A DNA stretch of 64,000 nucleotides. Source: a virus. The DNA lies in the IMG/VR virus record IMGVR_UViG_3300045988_126281; one strand, written 5' to 3'. The notes under the pieces are model-generated. The model was not told the origin of the DNA. It was given only the letters and a program-made list of their open reading frames with translations, and made no database searches. A program made the position numbers and the translations under genes. Positions 92 through 52,191 of the stretch are shown in pieces (position 1 is the first letter of the stretch; each line of letters starts with the position of its first letter).

Positions 92-141
92 GTATGAAAA
101 TTATAAAAATTTTCAATTTTGAATCAAAATTAGGCTTTCTC
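92..141 (-). promoter_or_regulatory. Conserved late promoter-like element, copy A
   Basis: Minus-sense gagaAAGCCTAATTTTGATTCAAAATTGAAAATTTTTATAATTTTC. Lies downstream of the giant-ORF terminators and faces a gene left of the window. Confidence 0.45.
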
Positions 142-239
142 ACATAGACTTTATATAAACATTAGTAATCTATCATTTTCTTTATAAAAGTTATTCATAC
201 GTTGAAATAAAACGTTTTATTCAAATATTACAGTCGATT

Positions 240-274
240 GCCCTTGCTGCTTATGCAGTAAGGGCTTTTCTTTT
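240..274 (+). terminator. Plus-strand terminator-like hairpin (convergent with the minus-strand terminator)
   Basis: gcccttgctgc-ttat-gcagtaagggc (11-bp stem with one G.T pair) followed by TTTTCTTTT on the + strand. Confidence 0.45.
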
Positions 275-275
275 A

Positions 276-316
276 CAAGAAAAAACTCGTGTCCAGCATT
301 ACACTGAACACGAGCT
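276..316 (-). terminator. Rho-independent terminator after the 4708-aa gene
   Basis: Minus-sense stem ctcgtgt/acacgag (7 bp, 15-nt loop) followed by TTTTTTCTTG. Confidence 0.55.
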
Positions 317-327
317 TTATTATTAGG

Positions 328-3300
328 TTAATCTTTATTTCCAATAGATTTACCAATATTTTTAGCAGCTTTAGAAGCAAAAGCGTTAGAATTAATTCGA
401 TAATAATTATTATTTTTATCAATAGTAGAAATTCTTCTAATAACACGAATAGCAGGAATATTTCTAAGAACAGTAACTGCATATTTGTTTTGATTAGCAT
501 AAACACCTGAAGTATAAACAGGACTCCAATCTTCATCAGTAATATCATTAATAACAAATCCTATAAGTTTAATACAATCTTCCACAGTATTTGTCATAGC
601 AACAGGAGATGACATCATAGTTGATAATTCAGAACCAAGTCCAAAAGGAGTATACATTCGAGATTCAGAATATTCTCTATCAGCAAGATAAAGTAATGAA
701 TTTATAAATATATCTTCTTTAATATCATCATCGTCAGCCATAGCATAAATTCCCATAGTAAGAAGTAATGAAGCAGTTATGCCTACAACATCAGCTAAAG
801 CACGTTTAATATTTTGTTGTTGCCAAGTAGGAAGAAGTTCCCAATTAATTTTAAGGTTGTTTATACAATCTAAGGCACAAATAGCAGTTGTTTGAATTGA
901 TTCAAGAGCAGTTATATCGCTATCATTAAAAGAAATATCTCCAGTATTTTTTGTATGTAAAGCACGAGCTTTTTGTTTGTAATTATTAAAATCAGTAGTT
1001 AAATAATTCCAAAATGCAGCATAAGAACCATATTCACGAGTACCACGAATTTCATTATAATAACCTTTAGTTCTATAACGTTTCATGATACCAGGATAAA
1101 TATGCTTATGATATTGCATAACAAGAGAACCCCACCAATATCGTTCTATAACGGCAGCAGCATTTTTATCATAGAATCCATGAATCTTTTTATTAATTTC
1201 AATTGCTCTTGTACTAAGAAAACCACATATTTCATCAGTAAGAAGACTATCCGGTTTAATATTAATCATACCTGTTTTAGAATCATAATCAAGTTGATTC
1301 ATAATAGTAGGAGCTTTATCAAACTCTTCTTTAGCATTTTTACGAAATTCATCACGCATAGAAACATATTTTTTAGTAATTTCTTGTTGTTGCTCTTTAG
1401 TAGCAAGAGATTTAATAAATTCAGTAGGAAGGTCTCTTTGGAAATTATTATATTTCATAGCAATATTTTTATCTTGACGAATATATTTTTTAAAATCATT
1501 ATATCTGTCTATAAGAACTTGATTTCCATCAATAACTTTTCTTAAAGCAAGTTCGTCAAGATTTCTTGTATAATCAGCAATACTCATAGCTTCAACTTTT
1601 CCATCTGAATTAGTAATAAGTCTATGACTATTAAGAACTGCAAATAAAACAGTATTTTGCATAAAGTGTTCACCACCTGATTGCATAGAATAAAGAATGT
1701 TTTGAACTCTTTGAGCATTTTCACTTGCACTTGCAAAATCACCTCTACCAAACTCAAGCATTTCATCAATGTTTACAACATTAAAAAATCTTGCAAGAGC
1801 AGAAGCCATATTACTCGGTTTATCTGTATTAGAAAGAGCATCATTCATCATTCCTAAAGCATTAGCTGAATAAAATCCAGCAGCTTTTGCAAATTCAGAA
1901 GTTCCAAAATATTCTTTAGCAAATTGTTCTCCAAGAATATTAACTAAACCAGTTGCAACATTAGTAATACCTCCATAAATATTAAATATCATATATTTAG
2001 CAGAAGTAATATTTTGAAGAAAATCTGCATACTTTGTAAGAGGATTAAGCTTTTTATATTCTCCAAAAAGAACTCTCTTTATATAAGTTTCAAAAGCATC
2101 AATAGTTCCTTTTTGAGAAATTTCAAGATACTTAGTATCATCAGAAACATTAAAATTTTTATCTTTAACAAGATTGCCAAAAGGACTTACTTTAAGAGCA
2201 TTTCTATGTTTTAAATCTTCAAGTTGAAGATACATAAGATTTTTGACTTTAGCTCTAGCATCATATTGATTAGCATTAAAAATAAATTGTTTGAAAACAT
2301 TTTCCCAATCAGTATTTAGAACAGATTTTTCAAGTTCTTTGTTTTCTTTTCTAATTTCATTATTTTTAGAAGTAACATCATCAATATATTTTTTATATTC
2401 AGTATCAGTTTCTAAAGTTAACTTAGGACGAACTTTAATAAGTTGTTTATATCCTTTAGCTTTAAGCTCTTGAAGCATATCAAATTTAGGCTCAAAATTT
2501 TTTGCATAAGAAATATCTTCATGCCAAGTTCTATCAGAATAATTTCTAAATTTCAATCCAGCAGCTTGAGCAAGTTGAGAACCGTACCATTTAGCATCAA
2601 TTTTAGGATTATAAAGTCTAGGAGCATTACCTTCTTTAATAAATTTTTGACTTTGTTTATTAAGACTAAATTGAGTCATAATTCCACGAAGATAATTTCT
2701 CATTTCTTTTTCAGCATCATTTAAAGCAGGAACATTAGGATTGTTATAAGAACCTGTATCAGTTCTATAATTATATGAATTTTCTTTATAATTAGGATTT
2801 ATTTGTTTAGGAGTATGTTCAATATTATTTTCTCTTGGTTTCCATTCATATTGTCCTTTAAGACTACCATCTTCCTTATAAGAAAGTTTAGTCCAAATAG
2901 GAAGAGCTTCCCATTTTCTTTTATAAGGATTATAAGTATGATTAAGATTAAACCAATCATCATAATATTTATCAGCAGCTTCTTTTCCTTGAGATTTTTC
3001 TATTTCTTTAGCCTTATTAAGAACATTTTGAAGTTCAGTATAATAATGGTCAGTATTAGTAAATTCTACATTAGAATTAAGAAGTTCTCTTGCTTCAGTT
3101 GCTTCTTTATTAATATATTTTTTAACATTAGCAATTTCATCAGCATCAGCAACTTTAAATGGGTCTCCTTTCTTTTTAGTTAAAGAAAAATACCCATAAA
3201 TAAATTTATTAGGAATATAACCAGCAGTTTGTTTATTTTTAGATTTATCTTTAAGAACAAAACCATTTTGATTAGGCTCACAAAAAATCATTTTAAAAAC

Positions 3301-6300
3301 AGATAAAGCATTACCGCCAAGTCTAATGGCTTTAGCATAACTTTCCATAAACTTTTTATTATCAGTTTTAGCAAAAGTTTTAACAAGTTTCTCTGAATCA
3401 GATTCCTCTACGGGCAGGCTATCTTTATCTTCCGAATATAAATCTCTAAGTTCTTGATAATATTGAGCTAAATCTTGTATTTCAGCTTGACCTAAATTTT
3501 TATAAAGAATATCAAAATCTATTCTGCCAGTATCTTTATTTATACATTTATAAAGAATGTTATTGATTCGAGTATAAAGTTCTTGTTTTTTAATAATACC
3601 ATCAGTACCTTTAGGAATAAAATTTAAATCTCTATAAAACCTATAATTATAAATAGGCTGTTCATCAATATCTTTAATTAATCCAGCATCAGAATAAGCA
3701 AGTTCATTATCTGGTCTATTAAAACCTTTACTATTATCATAATTTCCATTTTCATCAATAGAACCAAATGGTTTATATTGTTCAAGTATTATATCTCTAA
3801 TCTGAGATTTTTCTTCATTAGTAAATTTAGTTCCATCAATAGTACCAAAAACATCATATAAATTAGTAGTTTTTTTATCTTTAATATCTTGAAGAAGTTT
3901 TTTAAGTTTTCTTCCATTAAGTTTATTACTATTTCTTTGAAGAACTTTAAAAGCTTTATTTATTTTATCAGAAGCTTCTTCATTAGGAATAAAAGTAGCA
4001 TTATCTCTTAACCATTCAACAGAAGCAGCATATTTAATATTTTGAAGTTTAACTTCTTCAGAATCATAAGGATGTTCTTTATTATAATTTTCAACAACAT
4101 CAAGATTATATTTAAGATTTTCTTTAAAATCTTCAGAAACAACATCTTCAAAATATTGTTTATTAAGAGCTTTCTTCTTATCAGTATATTCTTTAATAGC
4201 TAAAGCAATATTATATTGCTTCTTTTGTTCAGATTCGTTTTGAATAACAAATCCATCATCAGTAAATATCAAATCTGTATCTTCAGTATTATTATAAACT
4301 CTATTAGGATTTGAAAGATTAGCTACTTGACGTCTAAGATTAATAAGTTCTTCTTGTTGTTCTTTAGTAAGGTTTTTAGAATCATTATAAAGAGCATAAA
4401 GTTTTTGTCTTAACGTAAGATATTCTGCAAATTTATCACCAACTTTAGCAAGAACTTCTTCTCTTAATTGAATATCTTTTTTATAGTAATCATCTGGAAG
4501 TCTTTGATTAGTATTTTTAAGTTTCCATTTATCAAATTCAAGTTTTTTTCTTAAATATTCGATAGAAGTTTCTCCTTTAGTAGCACGAAGTTCATCAAGT
4601 TCTTTTTGATATTTAACTTTATCTTCTTTAAATTTATCAGTATAATCTTGAACAAATTTTCCATATTTATTAATTATTTTATTATAATCAACATTTCCTT
4701 TAGACTTAATTTCTTCAATTTTCTTTTTATATTCAGCAACCATTCTTTGTCCTTTAATTTCTTCTGTTTTAAGGACACGTTCAACCATTTTAGTAATAAC
4801 TTGAATTTGTTTATGATTAATATCGTGAATATCTCCAATCCAATGAGCACCAAACCCAGAATCTCCATAAACATCTGTAAGAGTAACAAGACCTAATTGA
4901 ACATTAGGATTAGTAGAATAATTATCTGCTAAAAATATATTAAAAACATTATCGTATGCTTTATTAATTTTAGCAATAATTTCACTATCTCCTTTTATTC
5001 TGTCAATAGTCTTAGAAAGTTTTATAAGAGCTTTTGCTGTATCAGCGTCATTACTAGTAAGATAAGCCCCAATATTAGAATAAATATTTTCTCCAAAAGT
5101 TCTAAGTTCAAGAAGAAGTTTTATAAGTCTATCAAAATCCCCTTTATTTTCTTCTTTATTAAGTTCTTTATAAAGATTAGGGTCTGATATAGAATAAGTA
5201 TTACCATCAGAAAGAGTAAAATTAGAAACATTTGCTAAAAGCTCATTAGCTTTTCTTTCATAATATCTATTAGCAATAGAATAAATATCTTTTTTATGTT
5301 CATTAACTTCTTTAATAGAATCAAGTCTAATTCCTTTACTTAAGAAAAGATTAGAATCATAAAGACCATTATAAGTATTTCCTCTATTAATAGAATATTT
5401 AATATCATTTGCTATAAGTAAAGGAAGTCTTTGCTCATCAGTAATTTCAGCAGTAGTTCCAGTTGGAATATCTATATCAAGGTCATCAAAAACAGAAGCT
5501 TCAAATTCAACTTTTTCTTCATTTCTTCTTCTAATTTCATCAGCTTCTTGTTTAACAATAGCTTCATCAGCAATAAATTCTATTTTATAAATAGACCTAT
5601 CTCTATTAGTATTGGTTTCAAAATATTTATTACCTTCTATTTCATTATCATAAAATATTTGTTCAGAAGTATCAAGAGGAGAATATTTACCTTTTTTATT
5701 AGTTTCTACATTCCATTTCTTATAAATTTTATTATTAATTCTAGTAACAGAATAAGGAGTAATTTTTATAGTAACTTTTTGGTCATTTATATAAATATCT
5801 TGAAAAATAGCACCATTTTCTTTAAGATTAAGTACACGATTAAGTTGTTCAGATGTATTATAAACAAGTCCATATTCTACATCAGCTCTTTTACCATAAT
5901 TAATATACCATTTAGTAACATCATTAACAAATTTAGAAGCAGCGTCATGTATAAGTTTTCCTTTAATAGAAGTATCAGTAAAATTATCAGCCATGACCTG
6001 CAAATAATCAGAATTAATATCTTGTTTTACATTTTTAAATTTATAAGTAGGAATTTTAGTAGTTTTATCAGATTCTGATTTTATAATTTGTTTAACATCA
6101 TCTAAAGTTAATTGAGAATTAATTTTATTAGTAACAATATCTTTATAATAGTCATAAGGTCTAAATCTATTATTTCCATTATTAATAGAATAATCAGAAG
6201 TTTCATTAGCCTCAAGTTCATTTAACGGAATAAGATAAATTCCTTGTAATTTATCGTTACGAACAATTTTATAAAGGTTATGGTTACGTTTCTTTCCAGT

Positions 6301-9300
6301 ATAATATTGAAGCTTAACATAACCTTCAGTAGAATCAGCAGTTAATCTAATTTGTTCAAGTAAATCTTGATATGACTCGGTTAAAGGAATATAAATAGAA
6401 TCATCGGAAAGAATACAATTATTAAGTTTATTTCCAAGATTCATTGTTTGTCCTTCAGTAGAATGTTTAGGAAATCTATAAGTTCTAACTAAAGCAGAAT
6501 GACTACGAACAAATTTGTCAACATAATTTTGTCTAAAATTATCATTATATTTAAGTAAATCTTTAAATCTATCATTAACAGACATAATAAGATTTTGTTT
6601 TTCATCAGTAATAGAACTCATTAATCCAAGTCCATTATTATTTATATCTGCTTTAAGAATAGAATTAGGAATTACTTTTGAAATACCATTATAAGTAAAA
6701 TTAAATCCTTCAACAATAAAAGCATATTTAACTAAATCAGCAGCAGCCATTCTTACAAAATAATTTTTATTAAAGAATGCTTCATTAAAAAGTTTAAATA
6801 TATCTTCAATATTATAATTATCAGTTTTAATAGTTATTCTATTTTTTGAATAACCTTTATTGTTAACTTCTGTTTGATTAAATTTTTGAACATTAACAAT
6901 TTCAAACAGTCCTGCATCATAATTAAACATTCGTTTTATAAATAGAACTTTTTGAGCAGGAGTAAGTCTATTATATCTATTAATAAAATCACTATGATTA
7001 GCAAGTAATTCCTTTACAGGGAGGTTTATGATTTCGTTACGATAAAGTTCTTTATCTTTACCTTCTGGAACTTCAATAGTATCTTCAATTCTATCATTTT
7101 CTTTTTCAATAAAACCATAAATTCTACCTTTTTCAGCATTCCAATATTCAAGACTTTCATTAACTTCATCAGCAATTCTTGTTCCATCTTGAACAAAAAA
7201 GCCATTTTTATTAATAGTTATTGGAGTACTTAAAACAGGAATATTGTTATATAACATAGAAACAAGATAACGTTTATAAGTATTATATTGTTCATCAGTA
7301 AATGAACGTCCAATTAATTGTTGAACATTTTTTGTAATATCATTAAAATCTTTACTTTCTGTAAGAAATAAATTTTGATTAACACTTACAGATGTAGCAG
7401 TAGAATATTTAAGAATATTAGCAAGATATTTATATTTAGATTTTTCTGTATTAATATTAATACCGTCTTCAGTATATTTATAATCAGGATAAAGAAGTTT
7501 TAAAATAGGAACTTCATTTCCGTTATCATCTATACCAAATAATTCATTAGTAGTAGGATTTTTATCATTATTTGTATAATTTTCAATATCTTCAAGAATA
7601 GCTCTTGTACTTCTTATAGTTTGTCTTGCACCATAAGAATCAGGTCTTGTACATTTAGCAATAGCATCAATACTTTGAGAAAGATAATAATAATTTCTAA
7701 ATGTTAACGCTATTCCTAAATCATAAACAAAATCTTCATAAGTATTATGTTCAGATTTAAGATTATTAACAAGAGATTCTCTTTCTATATTAGCTTTAAA
7801 TTCAAAAAGATTACTATTACCATTTTTATCAAAATTAATTTTAGTATCAAAAACTTTTTCAAAAGTTTTAATAAATTTAGAATCTTTAGATAAAGTATTA
7901 ATAATTGTAGTTAATGATTCCCCTCCATGTAAAGGAATTGCATTATATTTGGTAATAATAGATTTAATTCCTAAATCAATTGCATTACCATAATTTTTAA
8001 CAAATTGACTTAAAAGTTTATTATTTTCAACATTAATGGCAGTAATAGCAGGTTGCATTAAAAATGCAATAGCTGTTTTATAATCAATTCCTAAATCAAC
8101 AAGAGTTTTAAAAGTACTAAATGTAAACATACTTTCATTATAGATAGCACCTTCTTTAATAGCATCAAGAATATGAGCAGTTGTTTCAGAAGAATAAACT
8201 GTTACATATCTACCTATAATATTTCTATCATTTAAAGAATGCCCAAGTCTATTATGATAAACTCTTGCATAAGTAATTCCATTTTTTTCATAAACTTCTA
8301 CTTTATCACCATATGCTTCTTTAATAGTAGCTAAATCATAATCTTCTCCAAGTTTATAATCTACAATTATTCCGTGTTTAATTTGAGTTCTAAGAATATT
8401 ATTAACAGAATTAAATGTATCTCTATTAACAGAAGCTGCTTTAAGTTGTTTTCCATCAATAGCATTTTGCATAAATCTAAATTGGTCAAAAGGATTATAA
8501 GAAGAATAACTTTTTGCAGAAACTCCAATTATATCTTCAAGTTCAGATTTAGCTTCAGTAATATCATCAAAATTAGAACGAGCTTGATTTTCTTCATAAG
8601 AAGAAACATCTTGCATAATATTAACCATTTGGTCAAGAATATAATTATTTCTTTCAGCAGTAGTCATTCTTTCTTCAATAGGAAGATTTTGATATTCATT
8701 AAATGATGGAAGATGAATTTCTTTAGAAAGCTTATTAAATGCTTTTAATTGAACTAAAAGACTTGGTTTTCCTTTATCATTAATAAATGGCCCTTTAGCT
8801 GTTTCTTTAGCTTTAATAATATTTTTTTCATCAGATTTACTATTATTAAGAATATCTTTAATATAAGCAATATATCCTTTTGCCCATTCCGCTTCATTAG
8901 TTGGCTCTTTATATTCGATTTTATGGAGATTACCTTCTGAATCTTTATACATTTCATAAGAAATACCATAAATAGTATCAATATCAAAGTCAGAACCAGT
9001 TTGTCTAACCCATTCATCAGCTACTATTATAGTAGAGCCATAAGCAGAATCAACAAATCCTTTTACTTTAAGAACAGAAACTGATTGTTTACCTTCAGTT
9101 GGAATACGATAACCAATATGAATATCAAGACCTTCTGATTCCATTTTAGCAAGAAGACGTTTATCAAACTCTTCTTTAGAAAGTCCTTCTGCATTATCTT
9201 TAGTCCATTGAGGAATAAGTTTACTCCAACGTGGAAGATAAACTTCCATATAACCTGTTTCTTTAACGGTTCCATCTTCATTATAAATAGTAGGACGATA

Positions 9301-14454: not shown

Positions 14455-14501
14455 AATAAATGAATTTTAAGTTTCACCAATAAAATCTCAATTAATATGG
14501 A

Positions 14502-14551
14502 CTTTGAAAATTAAAAAATATTGCAGATTTTGAACTAAAATAAGGCTCTCT
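14502..14551 (-). promoter_or_regulatory. Conserved late promoter-like element, copy B (upstream of the 4708-aa gene)
   Basis: Minus-sense AGAGAGCCTTATTTTAGTTCAAAATCTGCAATATTTTTTAATTTTCAAAG, 48-97 nt upstream of the ATG at 14454. Sits in the loop of the terminator hairpin. Confidence 0.5.
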
Positions 14552-14565
14552 ATCTGCAATATTTT
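14514..14565 (-). terminator. Terminator hairpin after the 2235-aa gene, overlapping promoter-like element B
   Basis: Perfect 13-14 bp inverted repeat aaatattgcagat/atctgcaatattt followed (minus-sense) by TTTTTTAATTTTC. Confidence 0.5.
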
Positions 14566-14580
14566 CTAAATATGAGTAAC

Positions 14581-17500
14581 TTATCGACAACGGAAATTTA
14601 ATTCATTAGAATCGATTTGTGATTGAATTAAGTGCCTATCAGCAACCTCGAATCTATTTACATAATCGCCCATTGTTGATATTCGAGAAATACCATTTAA
14701 GCTAACATTTGGATTTGCAGCATAAACTTCAGCAGCAATATCATTTGAATCAGTAAGTTCATCAAACATAGAAAAATCTTCATCATCTTTAATAGTAAAA
14801 GGATTATCTGTTATATCAGAATCATCTGTTTCATCAGTAGTTGATTCATCTTCAGAAGTTAATTCTTCATCAGTAAAACCAGAAAGAAAATCATCTATAT
14901 CAGATTGTTCTTCTTGTTGTTTTTCAGTATTATCTTGAATAGTATTAGATTCTTCTTTAATTTCATTATCTTCTCTTATGGTATCAGTTGATTCTTCTGC
15001 CAATTCCTCTACGGGCAGACTGCTAATATCTTCTTCTTGTTGAATACTACTTGTAAAGTCAAGAGTACTACCAGTATCATCACCAAGAATATTATATATT
15101 TCTGTAAATATAGTATTATTTTTTGATTTATCAATACCAAATATATCGAGTATTGCATCTATAATTTTTTGAAGAAGAGATTTATGCTCTTCTTTATATT
15201 CAATAGCAGTTTCTTTACCAACAGGAATAGTATTAAGATATTGCATAAGAACACTTTGACTAAATACTTCAGAAACCCATTCTTTAGCTATTTGAATATC
15301 AGTTGTATAAGTTTTATTAAAGTTATCTGCAAAATTTCTTAATATTTCAGCATAAGCTCCATCATATGTTTCAAGAGATTTTTTAAACTCATTAAATGTA
15401 TTAACTAAAGAAATAACTTTTCCTTTATCTTTAAAGAAATCAGTTTTATCAGTAACTCTATGCATTTGTTCATGAATAAGCTCACGAAGAAGATTTTTAG
15501 GTTTATTTTGAATTTGGTCTAATCCAAGTTTACCAATAAAAATTTTACCTTTTTCTTCTTTTTTACCTTTAGTAATATATCCTCCATAAACATTACTTCT
15601 TGGTTTAATAAGAACTTCATTTGGAATAAATCCACCATCAAAACGAGCATCAGCAAATTTTTGATTAAGTTTTTTAATTTTATCTAAATCAATTCCAATA
15701 GAATTAAGCTCATCTTTAAAAGTATCAAGAAGTTCATTAGAAGTAATTGATTTCTTTTGTTTAACTTCAACAATTTTTTCAGCAGTAGTTTTTGATTGTT
15801 GAAGATGGCTTTCATTAATTTTAGGAGGAGTAATTTTTTCAAGTTTTACAAACAAAGAATTAAAGTTATAAGGCTTAGCAACAGTACCTTGAGAACCTCT
15901 TCTCATATGACTTGTAGTAACAGCATTATTACTAACAAGAAAATCAGAATAAGATTCATAAAGATGATTAAATCCACCTATATTAACTTGAATGCTTCCA
16001 TTGGCATTTCTTGTTACATATTGACTAAGTTGCTTATTTGTACCAATATCTTTAAAAGCAAAATTAGCCATATTAAATTCAAGATTTTCAGCAATAATTT
16101 CTTCAACAATATTTAATCCTGTAGAAACAGATTCATTTTTATTACGAGCATTAATCTTTTTATTTTTACCATAAAATATAATTTGATTAGTATAATAATA
16201 AATTTCATCTTGTGGAAGAACTATTTTACCTTTAGAATTAACAAGTTCTTTCTTTTTGGCATCATAAGTTACATCAGCAAATTTTTTAAAAGTAATAATG
16301 CGTTCATATTTAACTATATCTTGTTTATTCTTATATTGTCTAAGTAAATGAACGCCTGTTGAATCTTTACTGATAATAATTCCTTTAAATATAGAATTAC
16401 TTCCATAACTAAAAATAGAACTTAATTGATTGTAAAGATTATCGAAATCAATAGATGATTTATTTTTCTTAGCAAAATAATCATTAATTATTTTTGTAAG
16501 TTCATTATAAACTCCTTTATAAAGTTCTTTTGATTGAGCGACTTTATTAGTGCCATTAAATAAAGCAACAATAGGACTTCCATTTTTATTTTCTAAAACC
16601 ATTCCATAACTACCTGGCATAAAAGTGGCAGGATTATTATAATGATTTCCATTTTCATCAACACCTTCAGTAATATTTGTAAACATAATAACAGGATGTC
16701 TAGTTTTACCATTTAAAGATTTTTCTCTAACAGCTTTACCTAAACCTAAATTTCCAATATCATTTTGTTTACTACTATCATAAAGCCATTCTAATTCAGA
16801 ACTATCAAGAGATTGAAGAGTGATTTCATAATCAACTTTACCATTATCTTCTAACTGAGTTTGTAAATCATAAGTTCTGTTATAATTGTTCCAAACAGAT
16901 TGAATATAATTGTAATAAGAAAGATATAATGATTCTTTATCTAAAGATACTTTGTTATTTTGGCTTCTATAATTATAAAAAATTATACCATTAAGAGGAG
17001 AAATAATGCGTTTTTTAACTTTATTAATTAATTCATTTTTTCCTTGAGGAGATTTATTTTTAGTATTAATATCAAGAACACCAAAAGTTCCATCTTCAAT
17101 AAAAGGTTTAATTATTGGACTATTTAAAAGTTCTAAACAATAATCATAAAGAGCATCTCCTTGTAAATAAGTATTAGGATTAGCAATAAAATCAAAAAGT
17201 TTTTGATAATCTTTATTGCTTCTTTGAATAAGTTCATAAATAAATCCATCGATATTACTTTCAATACCTTCTTTTGTTTTAGTTACTTCTGGTCTAAATC
17301 CATATTCTCCTTTTCTACGATAAGTATTGCCATCAGCACTTCTATTAACAGTATCTATAAATCCAATTTCATTACCTTCTTCATCAACAAAACTAAGAGA
17401 AGCTGGGTCTTTTTTAGCTCCAACCCAACGTTCAGTTTTTTTAACAAAAATTTTCTGTCCAATAGATTTTTTAATAGTAGTTGGACTTTTAGTAGCATTT

Positions 17501-27202: not shown

Positions 27203-27249
27203 TAAAATTAAAAATTTTTATATATTTTACTCGATTTTTAGGCTCTGTG
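27203..27249 (-). promoter_or_regulatory. Conserved late promoter-like element, copy E (upstream of the 1072-aa gene)
   Basis: Minus-sense CACAGAGCCTAAAAATCGAGTAAAATATATAAAAATTTTTAATTTTA directly abutting the ATG. The 5' half is conserved and the 3' half diverged. Part of a 10-bp inverted repeat ttaggctctg/cagagcctaa. Confidence 0.4.
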
Positions 27250-27335
27250 AGCTTAATTTGTATTGTGTATGAGTAATCTATCATAATCAAACTAAAACTT
27301 AATCAGAGCCTAAACAAATAGCCAACAAACCGAAA

Positions 27336-31903: not shown

Positions 31904-31946
31904 AAATAAAAATTATTGTAGATTTTGAATCAATTTTAGGCTCTGT
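31904..31946 (-). promoter_or_regulatory. Conserved late promoter-like element, copy C (upstream of the 1398-aa gene)
   Basis: Minus-sense ACAGAGCCTAAAATTGATTCAAAATCTACAATAATTTTTATTT directly followed by the ATG. Confidence 0.5.
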
Positions 31947-32027
31947 AATGAATGTTTGTCTTAAATATGATAAGTTATATATTTTTAATAAAATCATTCA
32001 TTACAAGTCAAGCAAAGTACCAAAGAA

Positions 32028-34452: not shown

Positions 34453-34514
34453 AATACTTTTATTAATTATTAATACAAAAATAAACTTTATTTTTAGAAA
34501 TGAAAATTTATAAT

Positions 34515-37149: not shown

Positions 37150-37181
37150 TAATAACAATCAATATTAAACCTATGTTATTA
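37150..37181 (-). other. AT-rich hairpin between VR and TR (8-bp stem taataaca/tgttatta, 16-nt loop)
   Basis: Inverted repeat ~38 nt downstream of the VR end. DGRs often carry a hairpin/cruciform downstream of the VR. The stem is weak and AT-only. Confidence 0.3.
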
Positions 37182-37203
37182 ATAAACTTATGATTATAAA
37201 AAA

Positions 37204-39582: not shown

Positions 39583-39585
39583 TGT

Positions 39586-39646
39586 TATATAAAATTAAAT
39601 AAAGGTAGCACTACCAAAATAAATATTTACTTTAATAGTACTACCT
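39586..39646 (-). terminator. Terminator-like hairpin between fibre gene and DGR target gene
   Basis: aaggtagcact/agtactacctt 11-bp stem (one mismatch), then TTTATTTAATTTT. Preceded by the 16-mer AACAATACGGATTAAG. Confidence 0.4.
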
Positions 39647-39659
39647 TAATCCGTATTGT
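39644..39659 (-). repeat. Post-stop 16-mer AACAATACGGATTAAG (minus-sense), copy 1
   Basis: Identical 16-mer 3 nt after the stop of 39664-40632. Followed by a hairpin, a T-run and the next ATG. Confidence 0.5.
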
Positions 39660-39663
39660 TTAT

Positions 39664-40632: not shown

Positions 40633-40652
40633 TATTTTTTTTAATAATTAAT

Positions 40653-42200: not shown

Positions 42201-42203
42201 ATA

Positions 42204-43733: not shown

Positions 43734-43742
43734 ATCTTAATT

Positions 43743-45092: not shown

Positions 45093-45093
45093 A

Positions 45094-45600: not shown

Positions 45601-45823
45601 AACTTAATGCACTAATAAGGTGTTCAAGATTAGCACAACGCGATTTATTAAAAATATTATAATTTTCAACAGCATGTAAAGCAATATTACTAAGCATATT
45701 ATTAATATAATTACAATCAGAATTTATAAAACCTTTTTCTTGTTTTTTTCCAGAAATAATATTACCATTAATTACTATATCAGCGTAATTATTAATAAGA
45801 AGCGATTTAACATTATTTTCCAT
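45593..45823 (-). CDS. Small hypothetical protein (76 aa)
   Basis: Short ORF with 8- and 11-nt overlaps to the flanking genes, suggesting translational coupling. Confidence 0.3.
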   Translation of the reverse strand: MENNVKSLLINNYADIVINGNIISGKKQEKGFINSDCNYINNMLSNIALHAVENYNIFNKSRCANLEHLISALSYA

Positions 45824-46400: not shown

Positions 46401-46404
46401 ATAA

Positions 46405-46461
46405 CAATAAAAAAGACTGATAATGCCATTAATAGTATAACTATTTTTGACAGTATCAGTC
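46405..46461 (-). terminator. Terminator-like hairpin after 46481-47356
   Basis: gactgata/tatcagtc 8-bp stem with long loop, then TTTTTT (minus-sense). Preceded by the same 16-mer. Confidence 0.4.
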
Positions 46462-46466
46462 CTTTA

Positions 46467-46482
46467 CTTAATCCGTATTGTT
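46467..46482 (-). repeat. Post-stop 16-mer AACAATACGGATTAAG (minus-sense), copy 2
   Basis: Identical 16-mer overlapping the stop of 46481-47356. Followed by a hairpin, a T-run and the next ATG. Confidence 0.5.
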
Positions 46483-47356
46483 AGTCAACGAGAGCTTTAC
46501 AAACAGTCTCAAACGTTTCAATAGAAGCAGAACCAGTCGGAAAAGCAACCTGAATAATTTGATTAACAACATCATCAACAGTTTTTACTTCACGAGGTTC
46601 GCTAAATTTAAGAGTAAAGATTGTATAACCAACATCAGTAGCTTTAGGCTGAGCAAGAGGGTCAAGAGGATAATTAGGATACATATAATGAACGTCGTCC
46701 ATAAGTGTATACTCAAATCCAGCATCTGCGGCAGCTTTATTAGCAAGGTCGGTTACATAATCAGTATCCCCATAAGCCTTTTTGAAAGCAGTTGTATTTG
46801 CAATATCTGCATCAATAAGATAATCAGCAGGAACTACTGTAAAATCACAATCTTTTGTGTTAGCTGTGAAAGTAAGAACTTCATCAGAATAAGCAACAGT
46901 AACATCTGTTCCGATTACATTATCTTTAAAATACTTAAGGAGAGCGGCTCCAATAGTATCTTTAGTATCAGAAGATTTAGAATGAACAGTGGCAGACCAT
47001 TTATTCCTTTCATTAAATTTAACACCTTTCTTAACAAGAATAATAGTGTAATCCTGATTAGGAATAATATCTTCTGGAAGAGTTACAGTGTAAACAGGCT
47101 TTGCGGCAGCTTGATAAACACCTTTTACATAAGAGAAATGATGCTTATAAATAGGAAGAACAACATTTCCTGCAGCACCTTGACGAAGAAGAACAAGAAC
47201 TCCTTTCTTGTTAATCTCATTGCCAGTAGCAGTAAAAGCAGTCTTACCATTAGCATCGAGATATGCAAATCCTACTTTACCAGCATCAGAAGCAATAGCG
47301 GCATCAACTGTTTTTGTAGGATACGCAGCATTTGCACCAAGAATAAATTGTCTCAT
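46481..47356 (-). CDS. Abundant virion protein candidate (291 aa; capsid decoration/auxiliary?)
   Basis: Markedly higher GC and an Ala/Gly/Thr/Val/Asp-rich composition compared with its neighbours, typical of a highly expressed structural protein. Lies in the head module. Confidence 0.4.
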   Translation of the reverse strand: MRQFILGANAAYPTKTVDAAIASDAGKVGFAYLDANGKTAFTATGNEINKKGVLVLLRQGAAGNVVLPIYKHHFSYVKGVYQAAAKPVYTVTLPEDIIPNQDYTIILVKKGVKFNERNKWSATVHSKSSDTKDTIGAALLKYFKDNVIGTDVTVAYSDEVLTFTANTKDCDFTVVPADYLIDADIANTTAFKKAYGDTDYVTDLANKAAADAGFEYTLMDDVHYMYPNYPLDPLAQPKATDVGYTIFTLKFSEPREVKTVDDVVNQIIQVAFPTGSASIETFETVCKALVD

Positions 47357-47373
47357 ATTCTATTATTTATTTG

Positions 47374-48042
47374 TTAACTTTGTATACTTTGAGAAGTAGA
47401 ACCAACAGAAGAAAAATACTTTTGAACAGCAGTTTCAACTATTTCATGATGAAGATAATCAGGAAGATTACAATTGACACATAAATTTTCATTATCGTCT
47501 AAATGAACAATAGCAGGATTTTCTATGTATCTAATTAAGAGAACTTGTGGAAATTTATCGGTTGTTCCATTTTGTATCTCAATAATCATTCCGTCATCAT
47601 CAAACATTGTAACAATCGGATAAGCAACAGATGCACGATTGCAATAATCAGCATTAGTATCTTCAACTTTATCTGGTTCAACAAATCTACACTTAATATA
47701 TCGTCCATCACCATAAGAAAGTGCAAAGGAACAGAAATACATTACATTTGTCAAATTTGCTATACTAAGATGAATAGGAAGTTTATCTTCAAATGACAAA
47801 TCAATTTCATTTCTTTTATATAAAGTTCTTATAGCATTTATTGGACTAATAGTATCATTCTGAATCGTAACTTTATCTTGAAATTGCATTGTGCTATTAC
47901 TCAAAACAATTTTACGAACAGTATCAACAATAGCATCATTAAGATAAGTATCAATAGACTCAGGAAGAATAGCTCTGACCAATTGCAAACCCATTGCTTG
48001 ACCTAAAGTCCTAAACAATACGTGCATCTCTTGTATCGTCAT
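47374..48042 (-). CDS. Hypothetical head-module protein (222 aa)
   Basis: ORF placed between the decoration candidate and the 383-aa gene. Confidence 0.35.
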   Translation of the reverse strand: MTIQEMHVLFRTLGQAMGLQLVRAILPESIDTYLNDAIVDTVRKIVLSNSTMQFQDKVTIQNDTISPINAIRTLYKRNEIDLSFEDKLPIHLSIANLTNVMYFCSFALSYGDGRYIKCRFVEPDKVEDTNADYCNRASVAYPIVTMFDDDGMIIEIQNGTTDKFPQVLLIRYIENPAIVHLDDNENLCVNCNLPDYLHHEIVETAVQKYFSSVGSTSQSIQS

Positions 48043-48043
48043 A

Positions 48044-49195
48044 TTAATAGTTTTTAAGTTTATTACTTAAAGCAGAAACTACTGAAGCATTATCTGGGTT
48101 CTTAAACCAAATTACAGCCTCCTTAATATTACTTCCAATAAATTCTCCACTAGGAAGAACTATATTTTGATTATTAGGAAGTCTTGTAAGTTCTCCATGA
48201 GAAATAAGTTTTTCAATTATAGCAACAAGTCTAATGTCTTTATCGCCACAAATCTTATTAAACTTAACAGGCTCAGTAGCACTAAATTTATCAAGATTGT
48301 TTTCTTTTACAATAGTAGATTCAGCCAAAGAAGAAATAATAGGCAGACCATAGAAATTACAATACTGAATATAAACAGCATCGAAAAGTTCTTTATCTTG
48401 AACACAGTTAAGATAATTAGACTTAGCTCTATTAACTTCTGTCCTAAACTTAGCCAGTTTTTCGGCTTCTTTTTGGTCATCTTTAAAATAAAATCGAACA
48501 TTAGGGTCTGAATTAATAAAAGCAATATCTTTCGCAACATCGTTATAAAACAAGCAATGTCTATAAATAAGATACTCTTCTACATTATCAGGATACCCAT
48601 ATTGATATTTAGTGCTTTCAAGAGCATTAAGTTTGACAATTTTGTTTTTAAGAGCTTCTTTAAGTTTATTGAGGTCTTGGCGTGGAAAAGCATCATATTC
48701 CTCATTAATCTTATTTTCTTGTTCTTTAATGGCAAAAAAGTCTCTCTTTTTATAATAATGAAAACTGATATTAAGAGTCTTTCCAATCTCATCAACTTTA
48801 ACTTGGAAGTTATTAAGATATTGTTTTACTCTTGTAATAAAATTTTCATTATTAGGAGCTAAACCTATAATATTAGGAAAATAAGTTTCAACCTCAGCTT
48901 TATTAGCAGAAAGAGTACGAGAAGAAGAAATTGAACTTCCAATATAATCACTACGTTTGCCAATAATTTTATCATTAGCTTTACGATAAAGTGAATAATT
49001 TTTTACAAGAGAAATACTAACACTTCTTCTGTCAAAATATTCTCTATCAAGAGATTCATTTTCTTCACGTTGAACACCTAAATCTACTTTAACTTCTCCT
49101 GCACCAGGTTGAAGAGCTTCAGTAGGAACTTTCTGTTCATTACTATCATTGGGAACAGCACCCATTGCGAATTTAATTGTACCAGAATTAGCCAT
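48044..49195 (-). CDS. Hypothetical head-module protein (383 aa)
   Basis: ORF 26 nt downstream of the major-capsid candidate. Confidence 0.35.
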   Translation of the reverse strand: MANSGTIKFAMGAVPNDSNEQKVPTEALQPGAGEVKVDLGVQREENESLDREYFDRRSVSISLVKNYSLYRKANDKIIGKRSDYIGSSISSSRTLSANKAEVETYFPNIIGLAPNNENFITRVKQYLNNFQVKVDEIGKTLNISFHYYKKRDFFAIKEQENKINEEYDAFPRQDLNKLKEALKNKIVKLNALESTKYQYGYPDNVEEYLIYRHCLFYNDVAKDIAFINSDPNVRFYFKDDQKEAEKLAKFRTEVNRAKSNYLNCVQDKELFDAVYIQYCNFYGLPIISSLAESTIVKENNLDKFSATEPVKFNKICGDKDIRLVAIIEKLISHGELTRLPNNQNIVLPSGEFIGSNIKEAVIWFKNPDNASVVSALSNKLKNY

Positions 49196-49221
49196 AACTT
49201 AGTTGTTTATATTTTTATTTA

Positions 49222-50694
49222 TTAGAGCGAACACTTCAGTAAGAACATCTTTGTAGAGTTGTTCACCTGAAGTCCAATAGAAGATTTAACCTCATAACGA
49301 GCCATATCAACTTCTGTAGCTGCATGATTGGTATTAGGTAGACCCCAGCAAGCTGGAATATCAGTCATACCCTCGATAACCTTAGCTTTGTAAATCTGAC
49401 CTTTCTGACGAACAAGACGAACATTACGTTCTCCCTCATAAGTAGAAAAATCAATAAATGCAGCTTGATGAGAAGTAAGAGGATAGCCTGTACGAGGGTG
49501 AATCATACCATTTTGTTTTGCAGCTTCGGCAATAGTTCCTTTATCAAAGAAAGAACAATGCTTAGCTGTAATTGTATGACCTTCTACAGTCTTATACTTA
49601 CGGAAATAAGCACCATACTCAAGACCATCACCGGAACCTTGAATTTCTTTTTCACCAAGAGGAGTAAGGAAACCATTTTCTTTAGCATCAAGCTTCATAG
49701 CCTCATCAAAGTCCTCAAGGAAACCTTTACCGCCCATGAGTACAATATCCATTGTACCAGTATCAGTATCTCTTTCAAGAACATCACCAACAGTTCTCTT
49801 AATCTTAGAAAGAGTAAGATACTCTCCATAGGTATCATAATTAGATTCACGGCAAATTTCAAGCATACCAGCAGTATGAGGAATTGGTTTACTGTTATCT
49901 CTATCTTTAAGACCAATTTCACCATTTACGTTACGGTTATATTCGGCAAGCCAAAGTCTTTCCTCATTCATAACACGCATTGTAAGGTTAAATTGACGCA
50001 TTTCCTCGTTAATCCAAAGTTTAGAAGAACCGCCTTGAGCATTCTTAAACTCATATTGAGTAATTACGTTAGCAAGATTACCTGCAATTTCTTTAGAATA
50101 TCTATGGAACTCAAGCTGAGAAGTCATCTTACCATAAGACATAGAATTGCTTCTATTACCTTTAGAGTAAGATTCACTAATAGTAGGAGCACTCATAGAC
50201 CAATACATTCCTTGCTTAAGGAAATCTGGATTTACATAAGCTTCTGGATTAGGAGTTGTAAGTTTAAGAATATAGGCATATCCATAAGGACTTTCACCTA
50301 AATCTTTTTGAATACGAACTTGGGTCATTCCATCAGGAGCAATAAGACCATATTGCTCAATAAACCAATGAGTAGCAAAATGAACCTCAAATTCAACACC
50401 ACCTTTACCAGGAGTAGTATTATCAGGATTGAAATAAGTAACCATATCAGTAAACTTCATTCTACCCATAACAGGCCAAGTCCACTGAACAGTATCAATA
50501 TCAACAACTCCTGCTTTACCTTGACCCTCAGTCATAAATGTAAGAGGGAATCTATCATCGTCCATACCATAATTATAAGTAAGGAACGAATTAATTTCTA
50601 CTGGCTTTTGAAGTTGAAGATATGCAATGCTTTCTTCATTAGAATATCCTCTGTCCTCATAACGACCAGAAGAAATTTTACGCATTTTATACAT
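49222..50694 (-). CDS. Major capsid protein candidate (490 aa)
   Basis: Its size and its position after the terminase, portal and scaffold-like genes follow the canonical head-module order. GC is elevated. Homology not verified. Confidence 0.55.
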   Translation of the reverse strand: MYKMRKISSGRYEDRGYSNEESIAYLQLQKPVEINSFLTYNYGMDDDRFPLTFMTEGQGKAGVVDIDTVQWTWPVMGRMKFTDMVTYFNPDNTTPGKGGVEFEVHFATHWFIEQYGLIAPDGMTQVRIQKDLGESPYGYAYILKLTTPNPEAYVNPDFLKQGMYWSMSAPTISESYSKGNRSNSMSYGKMTSQLEFHRYSKEIAGNLANVITQYEFKNAQGGSSKLWINEEMRQFNLTMRVMNEERLWLAEYNRNVNGEIGLKDRDNSKPIPHTAGMLEICRESNYDTYGEYLTLSKIKRTVGDVLERDTDTGTMDIVLMGGKGFLEDFDEAMKLDAKENGFLTPLGEKEIQGSGDGLEYGAYFRKYKTVEGHTITAKHCSFFDKGTIAEAAKQNGMIHPRTGYPLTSHQAAFIDFSTYEGERNVRLVRQKGQIYKAKVIEGMTDIPACWGLPNTNHAATEVDMARYEVKSSIGLQVNNSTKMFLLKCSL

Positions 50695-50736
50695 ACGACT
50701 TAAACTTTTAAATTAAACATAAACAACAAGAAAAGA

Positions 50737-52023
50737 TTAATAACCAAGGTCAATATCTTTTCCATTCTTTGCATCGTTAGTAGTAGGTTTAGTAATCTTT
50801 AAAGTAGATTTATTATTTTGTTTGGCTTTAAGTCTAATAGATTTAACTTCTTTTTCATTAATAGCCATATCTACAAGATTAGAATAATTACCACCAACAA
50901 ATGTTAGATAAGCACGAAGAATTTCATCATCTCTACGAGCATTTTGGTCTTGGGCTGCCAAATCTCTCTGATATTGAGAAAAACCTTCTTTATCAACTCT
51001 ATAAAGATAATTGAAGAAATCATTAGGCGTAACAGTAAGTTTTTGTCCATTTCTATTAATAATAATAGATTCAGGAATTTGATAATTAGCAATTTTTCTA
51101 CTATCTATAACTTCTTTAACGCCATTCCAATAATCTTGGTAATAACGTATTTCTTCGTCTTGTGCTTTCTTTGCTTCTTCTGCAAGTTTAGCTTTTCGGT
51201 CAGCATCATATTGTTTAAGATTATTAAGTTCATCTTCTGCAATAGTAGCAAGACTACCACTAGATTTAAGATAATCTATATAACCTTCAACATCGCCTTT
51301 AGCACCTCTTTCTTTCCAAGCAGTACGAATAATTTCTTTTTGCTGTTCCTCGTTATCTTTGTCTAAAGTGACATCACTTCTATCAACAACTTCATTAAAT
51401 CCTTCAAGACTATTTCCATTAGCTTTATAATAGTTAATGGCATCTTTAATAAAAGGATATTGAGTAAACAAAGTATTAAGAGCAGCTTCAGCTACATCAT
51501 TTTTCGATACTTCAACAACGGCATCAATGTAACTTTTTATACCATTAGCGGTATTTTCAAATTGTATAGGTTTTTCGTCATCATCGACAATTTCAGTGCC
51601 AACAGCTTTTATAATGTTGTCAATAGTAATATCATTTTCATTTGTATCATCTACATTGAAATTTTTAATCCAATCAGCAACATCTTTAGCTTCCTTAAAA
51701 ATAGCACCTTTATCATCAATGACATTTCCGTTTTCATCAACTGTATAAGTTTTATCATCAAGTTCAAATTTAGTACCAGAAGAATATTTAGATTTATTTT
51801 CTTCAGAACCTTCATCTTTTTTATCTTCTTTAGGCTCTTCTTTTTCTTCATTAGTAGTACAATTTCCTAAATCAGTAGTACCATTAGAAGTTTCTACTTT
51901 ACCAGTAGAAATATTAGTTTTTTCGTCCGTTGGAGGAATAGGTTCATTTCCTTTTCCACCATCAGTAGGAGGAGTAACATCTGTACTTGTCTCACCTCCA
52001 AAACCAAAATCAAAATCAGGCAT
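50737..52023 (-). CDS. Acidic Lys/Glu/Asp-rich protein (428 aa), scaffold-like
   Basis: Low-complexity acidic N-terminal half and coiled-coil-like composition. Sits between the portal and the capsid candidate. Promoter-like element D and a terminator hairpin lie upstream. Confidence 0.35.
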   Translation of the reverse strand: MPDFDFGFGGETSTDVTPPTDGGKGNEPIPPTDEKTNISTGKVETSNGTTDLGNCTTNEEKEEPKEDKKDEGSEENKSKYSSGTKFELDDKTYTVDENGNVIDDKGAIFKEAKDVADWIKNFNVDDTNENDITIDNIIKAVGTEIVDDDEKPIQFENTANGIKSYIDAVVEVSKNDVAEAALNTLFTQYPFIKDAINYYKANGNSLEGFNEVVDRSDVTLDKDNEEQQKEIIRTAWKERGAKGDVEGYIDYLKSSGSLATIAEDELNNLKQYDADRKAKLAEEAKKAQDEEIRYYQDYWNGVKEVIDSRKIANYQIPESIIINRNGQKLTVTPNDFFNYLYRVDKEGFSQYQRDLAAQDQNARRDDEILRAYLTFVGGNYSNLVDMAINEKEVKSIRLKAKQNNKSTLKITKPTTNDAKNGKDIDLGY

Positions 52024-52140
52024 ATCTTTATCAGTTTTAAGAAGTTTACTTTATGCAATTATACAAATTTCATTAATAAGTTCAACAATAAAATCATTAA
52101 TAACTTTATTAAAAACCAATTTAATAAATAATACTGTGAA

Positions 52141-52191
52141 ATATAAAACTAAAATATTTTATAAATTTCAATCAATTTTAAGCCGCTCTGA
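52141..52191 (-). promoter_or_regulatory. Conserved late promoter-like element, copy D (upstream of the scaffold-like and capsid genes)
   Basis: Minus-sense TCAGAGCGGCTTAAAATTGATTGAAATTTATAAAATATTTTAGTTTTATAT, ~120 nt upstream of the ATG at 52023. Confidence 0.45.

What the first reader, a model, noticed from the sequence alone, without database searches (positions are those of the whole stretch)
92..52191. Conserved ~45-nt element upstream of five minus-strand transcription units: candidate phage-specific late promoter
Seen: in the coding sense the sequence AGAGCC(T/G)TAAAATTGATTCAAAATCT(A/G)CAATAATTTTT(A)TTT recurs five times, with the 5' 25 nt most conserved. Copy C (31904-31946) ends at the ATG of the 1398-aa gene. 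Copy B (14502-14551) sits 48-97 nt upstream of the 4708-aa gene. Copy E (27203-27249) abuts the ATG of the 1072-aa gene. Copy D (52141-52191) lies upstream of the scaffold-like and capsid genes. Copy A (92-141) lies past the giant-ORF terminators and faces a gene off the window. Copies B and C share 34 of 37 positions. Copy B sits in the loop of the terminator hairpin of the preceding gene, so terminator and promoter overlap. None shows a clear TAnnTTTG -7 box. That box does occur before the plus-strand gene at 63836. Established: crAss-like phages and their relatives (phi14:2, N4-like) use distinct polymerases for different temporal classes, with class-specific promoter motifs. Inference: this element is a late promoter read by a phage-encoded or phage-modified polymerase. 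It may alternatively be a regulator binding site.
Basis: partly seen in the sequence, partly recalled or inferred. Interest (0 to 1): 0.6.

Follow-up and report, generated by a model that had tools for sequence, protein, structure and literature searches.

The report
Repeated promoter-like element, crAss-like phage
A roughly 90-base DNA element recurs between genes of a crAss-like gut phage, and one copy sits at the same place in the prototype crAssphage; it most likely marks transcription start regions for the virion-polymerase and capsid gene blocks, yet it does not match the host's usual promoter consensus.

Summary
The repeat is real. A profile search finds exactly five copies in the window, all on the minus strand and all intergenic (E 1e-11 to 1e-16; next hit E 0.36).

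- The element is about 90 nt, not 45. A TTACTCA-type block ends 24 nt before a (G/A)AGCC box, followed by an AT-rich stretch.
- Copies B and C share 30 of 37 positions, not 34.
- In a sister genome, copy A faces the end of a convergent gene block, not a gene.
- The sister genome has two further copies (F, G) in the opposite-strand module, so the element is not specific to late genes.

No shared RNA structure exists; only copy B forms a hairpin. The copy upstream of the 1072-aa gene has collinear counterparts upstream of the orthologous gene in the prototype crAssphage, cr11_1, cr3_1 and ctbg_1.

The experimentally mapped phi14:2 middle promoters occupy equivalent positions but show the host TTG/TAnnTTTG consensus, which this element lacks.

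Best reading (0.55): a promoter cassette conserved across several Crudevirinae genera, used by host RNA polymerase, possibly with a phage factor. A regulator-binding site is the main rival. No transcription start data were available.

The parts
86..180 (-). Copy A. Block 1 GATAGATTACTAATG at 160-174; AAGCC box at 133-137; TTGATT-16-TATAAT at 127-100. In the sister genome it faces the 3' end of a convergent gene block.
   Evidence: (E 1.4e-11)
14499..14592 (-). Copy B. GAGCC box at 14544-14548. It ends 47 nt upstream of the ATG of the 4708-aa gene, which carries DFDID at residue 1822 (virion RNA polymerase). Block 1 overlaps the stop codon of the 2235-aa gene.
   Evidence: (E 1.5e-16)
14511..14569 (-). 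Hairpin specific to copy B. An 18-bp stem encloses the central block. The 3' arm is the T-rich block and a T-run follows, so it may terminate the upstream 2235-aa gene.
   Evidence: z -4.86. The terminator scan did not call it because the loop is 27 nt.
27203..27288 (-). Copy E. GAGCC box at 27241-27245. It abuts the ATG of the 1072-aa gene. This is the copy conserved in other genera.
   Evidence: (E 2.3e-14)
27305..27316 (+). Inverted partial copy of the box (GAGCCTAAACA on the plus strand), about 60 nt upstream of copy E. It is kept in the sister strain although the sequence between has diverged. The prototype crAssphage has an equivalent inverted GCTCTCTG.
   Evidence: (E 0.36 hit at 27263-27313 +)
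31904..31980 (-). Copy C. GAGCC box at 31939-31943. It abuts the ATG of the 1398-aa gene, the homologue of crAssphage gp49/gp48. This intergenic gap does not exist in crAssphage or cr3_1, so the copy was probably gained in this lineage.
   Evidence: (E 7e-13)
52134..52227 (-). Copy D, the most divergent. GCGGC at 52182-52186. It lies 117 nt upstream of the 428-aa gene that precedes the major capsid gene.
   Evidence: (E 1.3e-14)
52056..52071 (-). Host-type-like box GAAATTTGTATAATTG between copy D and the ATG. The same position carries TATAATTGTA in relatives that lack copy D. It is a candidate ordinary promoter in tandem with D.
   Evidence: compare phi14:2 P092
52282..52322 (.). Inverted pair of the separate 15-mer TTCCTTTACAGGCAG. 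It forms the hairpin after the portal gene, just upstream of copy D.
240..318 (.). Back-to-back terminators between the giant gene and copy A: minus-strand 318-282 and plus-strand 240-265. Copy A therefore lies in the 3' untranslated stretch of the convergent plus-strand unit.

Best explanation
The element is a composite promoter cassette of about 90 bp. It starts, or re-starts, transcription of gene blocks in this phage.

ARCHITECTURE (shown). An upstream block (consensus ATGATAGATTACTCATA) ends 24 bp before a (G/A)AG(C/G)C box. About 17 bp of conserved spacer follow (TAAAATTGATTCAAAAT type), then a TAnAA(T/A) hexamer and a T-rich stretch.

MECHANISM (inferred). Host RNA polymerase initiates within or just after the T-rich stretch, giving very short or absent leaders where the element abuts the ATG (C, E, G and the copies in other genera). 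The GC-rich box and the upstream block replace the host -33 TTTG and -7 TAnnTTTG signals. They are probably contacted by a phage-specified activator or specificity factor, so that firing is tied to the infection programme.

HISTORY (inferred from comparison). The copy upstream of the gp47 orthologue, which heads the cargo and virion-polymerase operon, is ancestral in Crudevirinae. The window's lineage then spread the cassette to further junctions (B, C, D, A).
For: - All 5 window copies are intergenic although only 4.5% of the window is.
- 6 of the 7 copies in the species point at the next gene.
- Where the element abuts a gene, the distance from the box to the ATG is 33-47 nt in seven of the eight copies read that way: window C and E, sister G, crAssphage, cr11_1, cr3_1 and ctbg_1.
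- The block-to-box spacing of 24 nt holds in A, B, E, F, G, crAssphage and ctbg_1.
- GAGCC occurs in three heterologous E-equivalent gaps, with shuffle probabilities of 0.014, 0.032 and 0.010. The crAssphage copy is the top profile hit in 44.5 kb (E 0.0015).
- There is no consensus RNA structure: 0 pairs, and four of five copies fold no better than shuffles. The signal is therefore in the DNA.
- Between strains the GCC-to-T-rich part is nearly invariant, while the spacer upstream of it diverges.
- Position matches the primer-extension-mapped phi14:2 promoters upstream of the RNAP/cargo block and of the gene between portal and capsid. Those promoters also abut start codons.
- Copies A, B and D follow hairpins or terminators, as expected for a terminator-promoter junction.
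- GAGCCT-N17-TAnAA(T/A) holds in A-F by my reading, and one search lists B, C, E and F.
Against: - No transcription start data exist for this phage or any Crudevirinae, so the start site is not located.
- Three different -10/-7 readings fit the AT-rich sequence about equally well.
- The sigma-70-type scan finds no more sites than in shuffles.
- The bipartite pattern is not enriched in the gene-ward orientation among distant relatives (12 co-oriented against 14 not). Its spacing drifts to 15-16 nt in crAssphage and cr3_1.
- Copy A points at no gene.
- At D and F a canonical-looking host box lies between the element and the ATG. There the element could be an upstream regulatory site rather than the promoter itself.
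- No phage sigma-like or activator gene was identified.
Confidence: 0.55

Rival explanations
1. The element is an operator: a binding site for a phage DNA-binding regulator or architectural protein that modulates neighbouring promoters or terminators but does not itself initiate transcription.
For: - At D and F a host-type box lies downstream of the element (TATCTTTGTA 5 nt before the ATG at F; GAAATTTGTATAATTG at D).
- An inverted partial box lies upstream of E and is kept in the sister strain and in crAssphage.
- The centre of copy A is a perfect 8+1+8 palindrome, AATTTTGA-T-TCAAAATT, and B is near-palindromic.
- Copy A sits at a convergent junction with no gene to drive.
- Relatives carry phased AGCT/GGCT boxes at the D position.
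Against: - C, E and G, and the copies in four other genera, abut the ATG and leave no room for a separate promoter downstream.
- The element is strongly directional and its two blocks are unlike each other, which is unusual for a dimeric operator.
- The palindrome is absent in D, E and F.
Confidence: 0.22
2. The element is a transcribed leader acting at the RNA level, in translation initiation, stability or processing. The promoters would lie elsewhere.
For: The 3' part abuts the start codon in many copies and is A/T-rich and unstructured. Copy C folds worse than shuffles (z +1.3). From general knowledge, this suits Bacteroidetes translation initiation, which does not use Shine-Dalgarno pairing.
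Against: - There is no conserved structure or covariation.
- Copies B, D and F lie 94, 163 and 73 nt (box to ATG) from the ATG, and A has no ORF.
- The most distinctive conserved parts, the GC box and the upstream block at fixed 24-nt spacing, lie farthest from the start codon.
Confidence: 0.1
3. The element is a promoter for a phage-encoded RNA polymerase (the virion enzyme or an unknown one).
For: The motif is unlike the host consensus. The giant gene downstream of B encodes the DFDID polymerase.
Against: - In phi14:2 the virion polymerase transcribes early genes with no common motif, while middle and late genes need rifampicin-sensitive host polymerase.
- The genes downstream of B, C, D and E are virion components, not early genes.
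- No second polymerase gene was seen.
Confidence: 0.06
4. The copies are duplicated intergenic sequence spread by recombination, with no present function.
For: - C occupies a gap that does not exist in crAssphage or cr3_1.
- B and C are the most alike of the window copies.
- Relatives with 86% capsid identity lack copy D.
Against: - The E copy is kept across genera whose neighbouring proteins are only about 35% identical.
- The core is nearly invariant between strains while its flanks diverge.
- Orientation and spacing are maintained.
Confidence: 0.05

Closest known systems
Middle/late promoters of crAss-like phage phi14:2 and beta-crassvirinae genus VI (Drobysheva et al., bioRxiv 10.1101/2020.03.07.982082)
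   Same: - Multi-block motif repeated in sense orientation in intergenic regions.
- Same positions: upstream of the RNAP/cargo block and of the gene between portal and capsid.
- Often abuts the start codon.
   Different: The phi14:2 motif is an A-tract, then TTG, about 19 nt, then TAnnTTTGTA. That is the host sigma-A consensus, and plain holoenzyme transcribes it. The window element has a GC-rich (G/A)AGCC box and an upstream TTACTCA block, and no consistent TAnnTTTG.
Bacteroidetes primary-sigma promoters (-33 TTTG, -7 TAnnTTTG; general knowledge)
   Same: AT-rich. Copy A contains TAATTTTG, and C and D contain TAAAATTG.
   Different: The box is absent in E and F and degenerate in B. No TTTG lies 19-21 nt upstream of it. 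True consensus boxes occur elsewhere in the window, at 34476-34483 and 63796-63803.
Phage T4 middle promoters (MotA box plus -10, with AsiA sigma appropriation; general knowledge)
   Same: What it may work like: a phage-specific box replaces the host -35 while a -10-like hexamer is kept, which makes the host polymerase depend on a phage factor.
   Different: There is no sequence similarity. No MotA/AsiA-like genes were found. The factor is hypothetical here.
Promoter-stem-loop cassettes (PeSL) of T4-type phages (general knowledge)
   Same: Short repeated promoter-plus-hairpin cassettes at gene junctions, gained and lost between relatives. Compare copy C, gained in a new gap, and copy B, fused to a hairpin.
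   Different: PeSLs carry ordinary early sigma-70 promoters. Here the motif is non-consensus, and only B has the hairpin.

Membership tests
phi14:2-type / Bacteroidetes sigma-A consensus promoter | -7 box TAnnTTTG a few nt upstream of the start site | tested here: not met
   Only copy A has an exact match (125-132), and it lies in the central block. No copy has one in the T-rich block next to the ATG. The phi14:2 promoters all have it.
phi14:2-type / Bacteroidetes sigma-A consensus promoter | -33 TTTG or TTG 19-21 nt upstream of the -7 box | tested here: not met
   My reading. With the T-rich block as the -7 box, the TTG lies 15 nt upstream. With the central block as the -7 box, no TTTG lies at 19-21 nt.
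phi14:2-type / Bacteroidetes sigma-A consensus promoter | Sense orientation upstream of the RNAP/cargo genes and of the portal-capsid intervening gene | tested here: met
Promoter in general | Primary transcript 5' ends at a fixed distance downstream | not testable with these tools
   No transcript data were available.
Intrinsic terminator | GC-rich hairpin followed by a T-run, shared by all copies | tested here: not met
   Only B folds (z -4.9). A, C, D and E have z between -0.6 and +1.3. The scans call no terminator inside the elements.
Structured RNA element (riboswitch, leader, small RNA; Rfam) | Conserved secondary structure with covariation, or a match to an Rfam model | tested here: not met
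   0 consensus pairs across 12 copies. No Rfam family reaches its gathering score in the window.
tRNA-linked promoter, as in 12 of 14 genus VI phages | tRNA gene downstream of a copy | tested here: not met
   No tRNA in the window or in L001, L081 or L082. By my reading of the sequence, the sister's copy G lies downstream of tRNA-like sequences, not upstream of them.
Sigma-70-type promoter (TTGACA-17-TATAAT) | Both hexamers at 16-18 nt, above chance | tested here: inconclusive
   Only copy A scores (TTGATT-16-TATAAT). Site counts equal the shuffle expectation in this AT-rich DNA.

The most novel reading that the evidence does not exclude
The (G/A)AGCC box and its upstream partner block are the recognition site of a so-far unidentified phage-encoded specificity factor, either sigma-like or a MotA-like activator. 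This factor would redirect Bacteroidales RNA polymerase to the cargo/virion-polymerase operon across Crudevirinae, including the prototype crAssphage. The window's lineage would then have extended this regulon to the capsid block, the giant polymerase gene, two opposite-strand genes and an antisense transcript at the convergent junction.
Probability: 0.25. Interest if true: 0.7.

Novelty: new variant of a known kind. Interest (0 to 1): 0.45.

Why it matters
Very little is known about how the most abundant human gut phages time their gene expression. The only mapped promoters come from a marine relative and look like ordinary host promoters.

A non-consensus element kept upstream of the same operon in at least five Crudevirinae lineages, crAssphage among them, gives a concrete sequence to test. 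It could be used for 5' end mapping, for reporter constructs in Bacteroides or Phocaeicola, and as bait to fish out the protein that reads it.

If it depends on a phage factor, it would reveal a new layer of host-polymerase takeover in Bacteroidales. It would also offer an infection-inducible promoter part. If it is simply a variant host promoter, the result is ordinary.

Tried and rejected
- PHROGs and Pfam on the downstream proteins gave almost nothing beyond capsid, tail, ring proteins and lysis enzymes. No sigma or helix-turn-helix candidate emerged.
- The protein downstream of copy F has no match in the phage collection.
- Rfam found nothing and no tRNAs were found.
- An exact 23-mer search of IMG/VR found nothing.
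- Profile iteration over 2.7 Mb of related loci converged on the same species only.
- A strict regular expression for the central block recovered only this species plus one relative.
- A loose bipartite regular expression showed no orientation bias among distant relatives, so I do not claim a family-wide promoter grammar.
- Weak hits in L072-L079 are coding sequence.
- The L102-L106 hits after the giant gene overlap the end of a convergent ORF and have different spacing, so I did not count them.
- Sigma-70 scans are uninformative at 28% GC.
- Searches with the fast-evolving 1072-aa and 1398-aa proteins retrieved only the sister contig.
- An IHF-site reading of the central block did not fit the WATCAANNNNTTR consensus (by eye).
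- Literature searches found no description of a promoter motif in Intestiviridae. The phi14:2 preprint has no supplements held.
- One script call returned nothing and was repeated.
Full report
WHAT THE WINDOW IS

The window is part of a crAss-like phage genome. Terminase and portal are 73-75% identical at the DNA level to cr3_1 and to the prototype crAssphage. Its homologues lie mostly in Intestiviridae, and the closest annotated ones are in subfamily Crudevirinae.

Nearly all genes are on the minus strand. Reading the minus strand from high to low coordinates, the order is:
- terminase;
- portal;
- a 428-aa gene;
- major capsid;
- tail genes;
- ring proteins;
- a 1398-aa homologue of crAssphage gp49/gp48;
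- a 124-aa gene;
- a 1072-aa gene;
- a 905-aa gene;
- a 2235-aa homologue of the 'RNAP-associated zincin fusion' gp45;
- a 4708-aa gene with the polymerase motif DFDID at residue 1822.

THE OBSERVATION

All five copies are present at the stated coordinates. A profile of the five finds them at E 5e-19 to 6e-14 and nothing else better than E 0.36. The 23-mer consensus is expected zero times in shuffles. All five are on the minus strand and in intergenic DNA, which makes up only 4.5% of the window.

The alignment shows the element is longer than reported. It has three parts:
- an upstream block (GATAGATTACTCATA in E, with variants in the others);
- a central block beginning with (G/A)AG(C/G)C;
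- a T-rich block.

The 7-mer core of the upstream block ends exactly 24 nt before the box in A, B and E, and 23 nt before it in D.

- B and C share 30 of 37 positions, or 34 of 45.
- The two halves are about equally conserved among copies.
- Copy A contains an exact TAnnTTTG.

RELATED STRAINS

IMG/VR holds a sister genome, contig IMGVR_UViG_3300045988_095934 of 91,455 bp. Its capsid protein is 99% identical, and its other proteins are 83-93% identical. I retrieved it in pieces (L001, L081, L082, L152, L180, L183), which together cover nearly all of it.

It has the same five copies plus a sixth, F. Copy F lies in the opposite-strand module, upstream of a 235-aa ORF. A degenerate seventh copy, G, abuts the ATG of an 89-aa ORF downstream of tRNA-like sequences (my reading of the sequence). 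G aligns without gaps to F. No further copies were found.

After copy A the sister genome has no same-strand ORF. Convergent genes begin about 80 nt away. In the window, copy A lies between the last convergent gene (off the window) and a plus-strand terminator at 240-265. It therefore points antisense into the other module.

Comparing the window with the sister, the stretch from GCC to the end of the T-rich block is almost invariant. The spacer and upstream block change much more in A, C and E.

DNA OR RNA

A consensus fold of 12 copies has no base pairs. Folded singly, only copy B is structured. A, C, D and E fold no better than shuffles. Rfam finds nothing. The signal is therefore read in the DNA.

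WIDER CONSERVATION

Relatives with 76-86% capsid identity lack copy D. Iterated profile searches stay within the species.

The position of copy E is different. It lies upstream of the orthologue of crAssphage gp47, the first gene of the block that ends with the virion polymerase. That position holds a collinear element in other genera:
- crAssphage...TATTAATCGA-N-CAGAGAGCCTTAAAATCAATCAAATTACAAT...ATG. This is the top profile hit in 44.5 kb (E 0.0015).
- cr11_1: AATGATTAATCCATCA...GACGAGCCTTAAAATAACTAAAT...ATG.
- cr3_1: ACAGAGAGCCGGAAATAC...ATG.
- ctbg_1: TTAATCATA, then 24 nt, then AAGCTAGAATTTAATTAC...ATG.
- crAss002, from a different subfamily, has no gap there.

GAGCC alone has a shuffle probability of 0.010-0.032 in each of the three gaps that contain it. 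The distance from the box to the ATG is 33-47 nt in seven of the eight abutting copies.

CrAssphage also has a co-oriented GAGCCTTAAAAT between gp25 and gp26, which corresponds to copy F by position, and another upstream of gp56. The relative L159 has two copies.

The short box by itself is not over-represented genome-wide (5 observed against 4.35 expected). A loose bipartite pattern shows no orientation bias in distant relatives. The claim therefore rests on synteny and collinearity, not on motif counts.

Copy C sits in a gap that does not exist in crAssphage or cr3_1. The element has therefore spread within the window's lineage.

COMPARISON WITH WHAT IS KNOWN

In phi14:2, early genes are transcribed by the virion polymerase and show no common motif. 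Middle and late genes are rifampicin-sensitive. A tripartite motif upstream of middle genes is transcribed by sigma-70 holoenzyme in vitro. Similar motifs lie upstream of homologues of the RNAP, of cargo genes and of the gene next to portal.

I read those promoters from the genome. They consist of an A-tract, TTG, about 19 nt, and TAnnTTTGTA, often 4-8 nt from the ATG. This is the Bacteroidetes primary-sigma consensus (general knowledge).

The window element occupies the same positions but lacks that grammar. Canonical boxes do occur elsewhere in the window, at 34476-34483 and 63796-63803. They also occur between the element and the ATG at F, and in degenerate form at D.

MECHANISM

Shown:
- a directional, intergenic, DNA-level composite element with fixed internal spacing;
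- a bounded distance to start codons;
- conservation at one orthologous junction across several Crudevirinae genera.

Inferred:
- It is a promoter.
- Within this lineage GAGCCT-N17-TAnAA(T/A) fits every copy, by my reading. That would place the start site in the T-rich block and give near-leaderless mRNAs, as in phi14:2.
- Two other readings cannot be excluded.
- The missing host signals suggest dependence on a phage factor, but none was identified.

I put 0.55 on 'promoter'. Within that, roughly half goes to 'needs a phage-specified factor'.

The main rival (0.22) is a regulator-binding site. The evidence for it is the tandem host-type boxes at D and F, the inverted half-site upstream of E that is kept in the sister strain and in crAssphage, the palindromic centre of copy A, and the orphan position of A.

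An RNA-level leader, a promoter for a phage-encoded polymerase and functionless duplication are each less likely, for the reasons given with the rival explanations.

VERDICT

The repeat is real and functional-looking. It is best called a promoter-like cassette, and it is not specifically 'late'. It is a new sequence variant of a known kind of thing, a phage class promoter.

Its one surprising feature is that it departs from the host consensus yet is conserved upstream of the cargo/polymerase operon as far as the prototype crAssphage. I found no published description of it, but the search covered only the held library.

Noticed in passing
window 3403, 7009, 7923, 11161, 15004, 18557, 24660, 28028, 28284, 32575, 52282, 52308, 57322, 58588, 62043, 63461, 63567 (15-mers): A separate 15-mer, TTCCTYTACRGGSAG, occurs 17 times against 0.01 expected. 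It is on both strands, mostly inside genes, and in several reading frames. With positions 6 and 10 left free, all 12 exact copies are complementary there (C..G 5 times, T..A 7 times). This suggests a 6-bp hairpin with a 3-nt TAC loop. It also occurs in crAssphage (ATCCTCTACGGGGAG, 5-6 copies), cr3_1, cr11_1 and the sister genome. In relatives it sits where copy D's central block lies in the window. Its function is unknown, and it may be more unusual than the assigned finding.
   Followed up: partly
L152:14274-14365 (+) and L180:5165-5262 (+), sister genome, off the window: Two further copies of the element (F and G) lie in the opposite-strand module. F is followed by a canonical TATCTTTGTA box 5 nt before the ATG. 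G abuts the ATG of an 89-aa ORF downstream of tRNA-like sequences, which I read from the sequence and did not scan with the tRNA tool.
   Followed up: yes
window 14470-14487 (-); L176:30920-30940: The leader TATTGGTGAAACTTA(A/T)AA just upstream of the giant polymerase gene is conserved between the window and cr3_1, although the rest of the gap is not.
   Followed up: no
window 39583-39663 and 46401-46480 (-): The 16-mer AACAATACGGATTAAG recurs right after two stop codons, each time followed by a hairpin. A similar AAACGGATTAAAT lies near 62730 on the plus strand.
   Followed up: no
window 1-30: The window starts with (AT)15, exactly where the sister genome's sequence diverges. It may be a microsatellite or an assembly edge.
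   Followed up: no
L003-L047, about 8380-8700 (relatives); window 27300-27325: Relatives carry AGCT/GGCT boxes phased about 10-11 nt apart (for example ATAGCTGTTAATAGCTC), followed by a strongly conserved GCAGTATATATAAT, between portal and the next gene. The window has GGCTATTTGTTTAGGCTC upstream of copy E.
   Followed up: no
window 210-222 and 52299-52308 (-); L177:25345-25357: AATCGACTG(A/T) recurs near copies A and D, and near the crAssphage gp47-upstream element.
   Followed up: no
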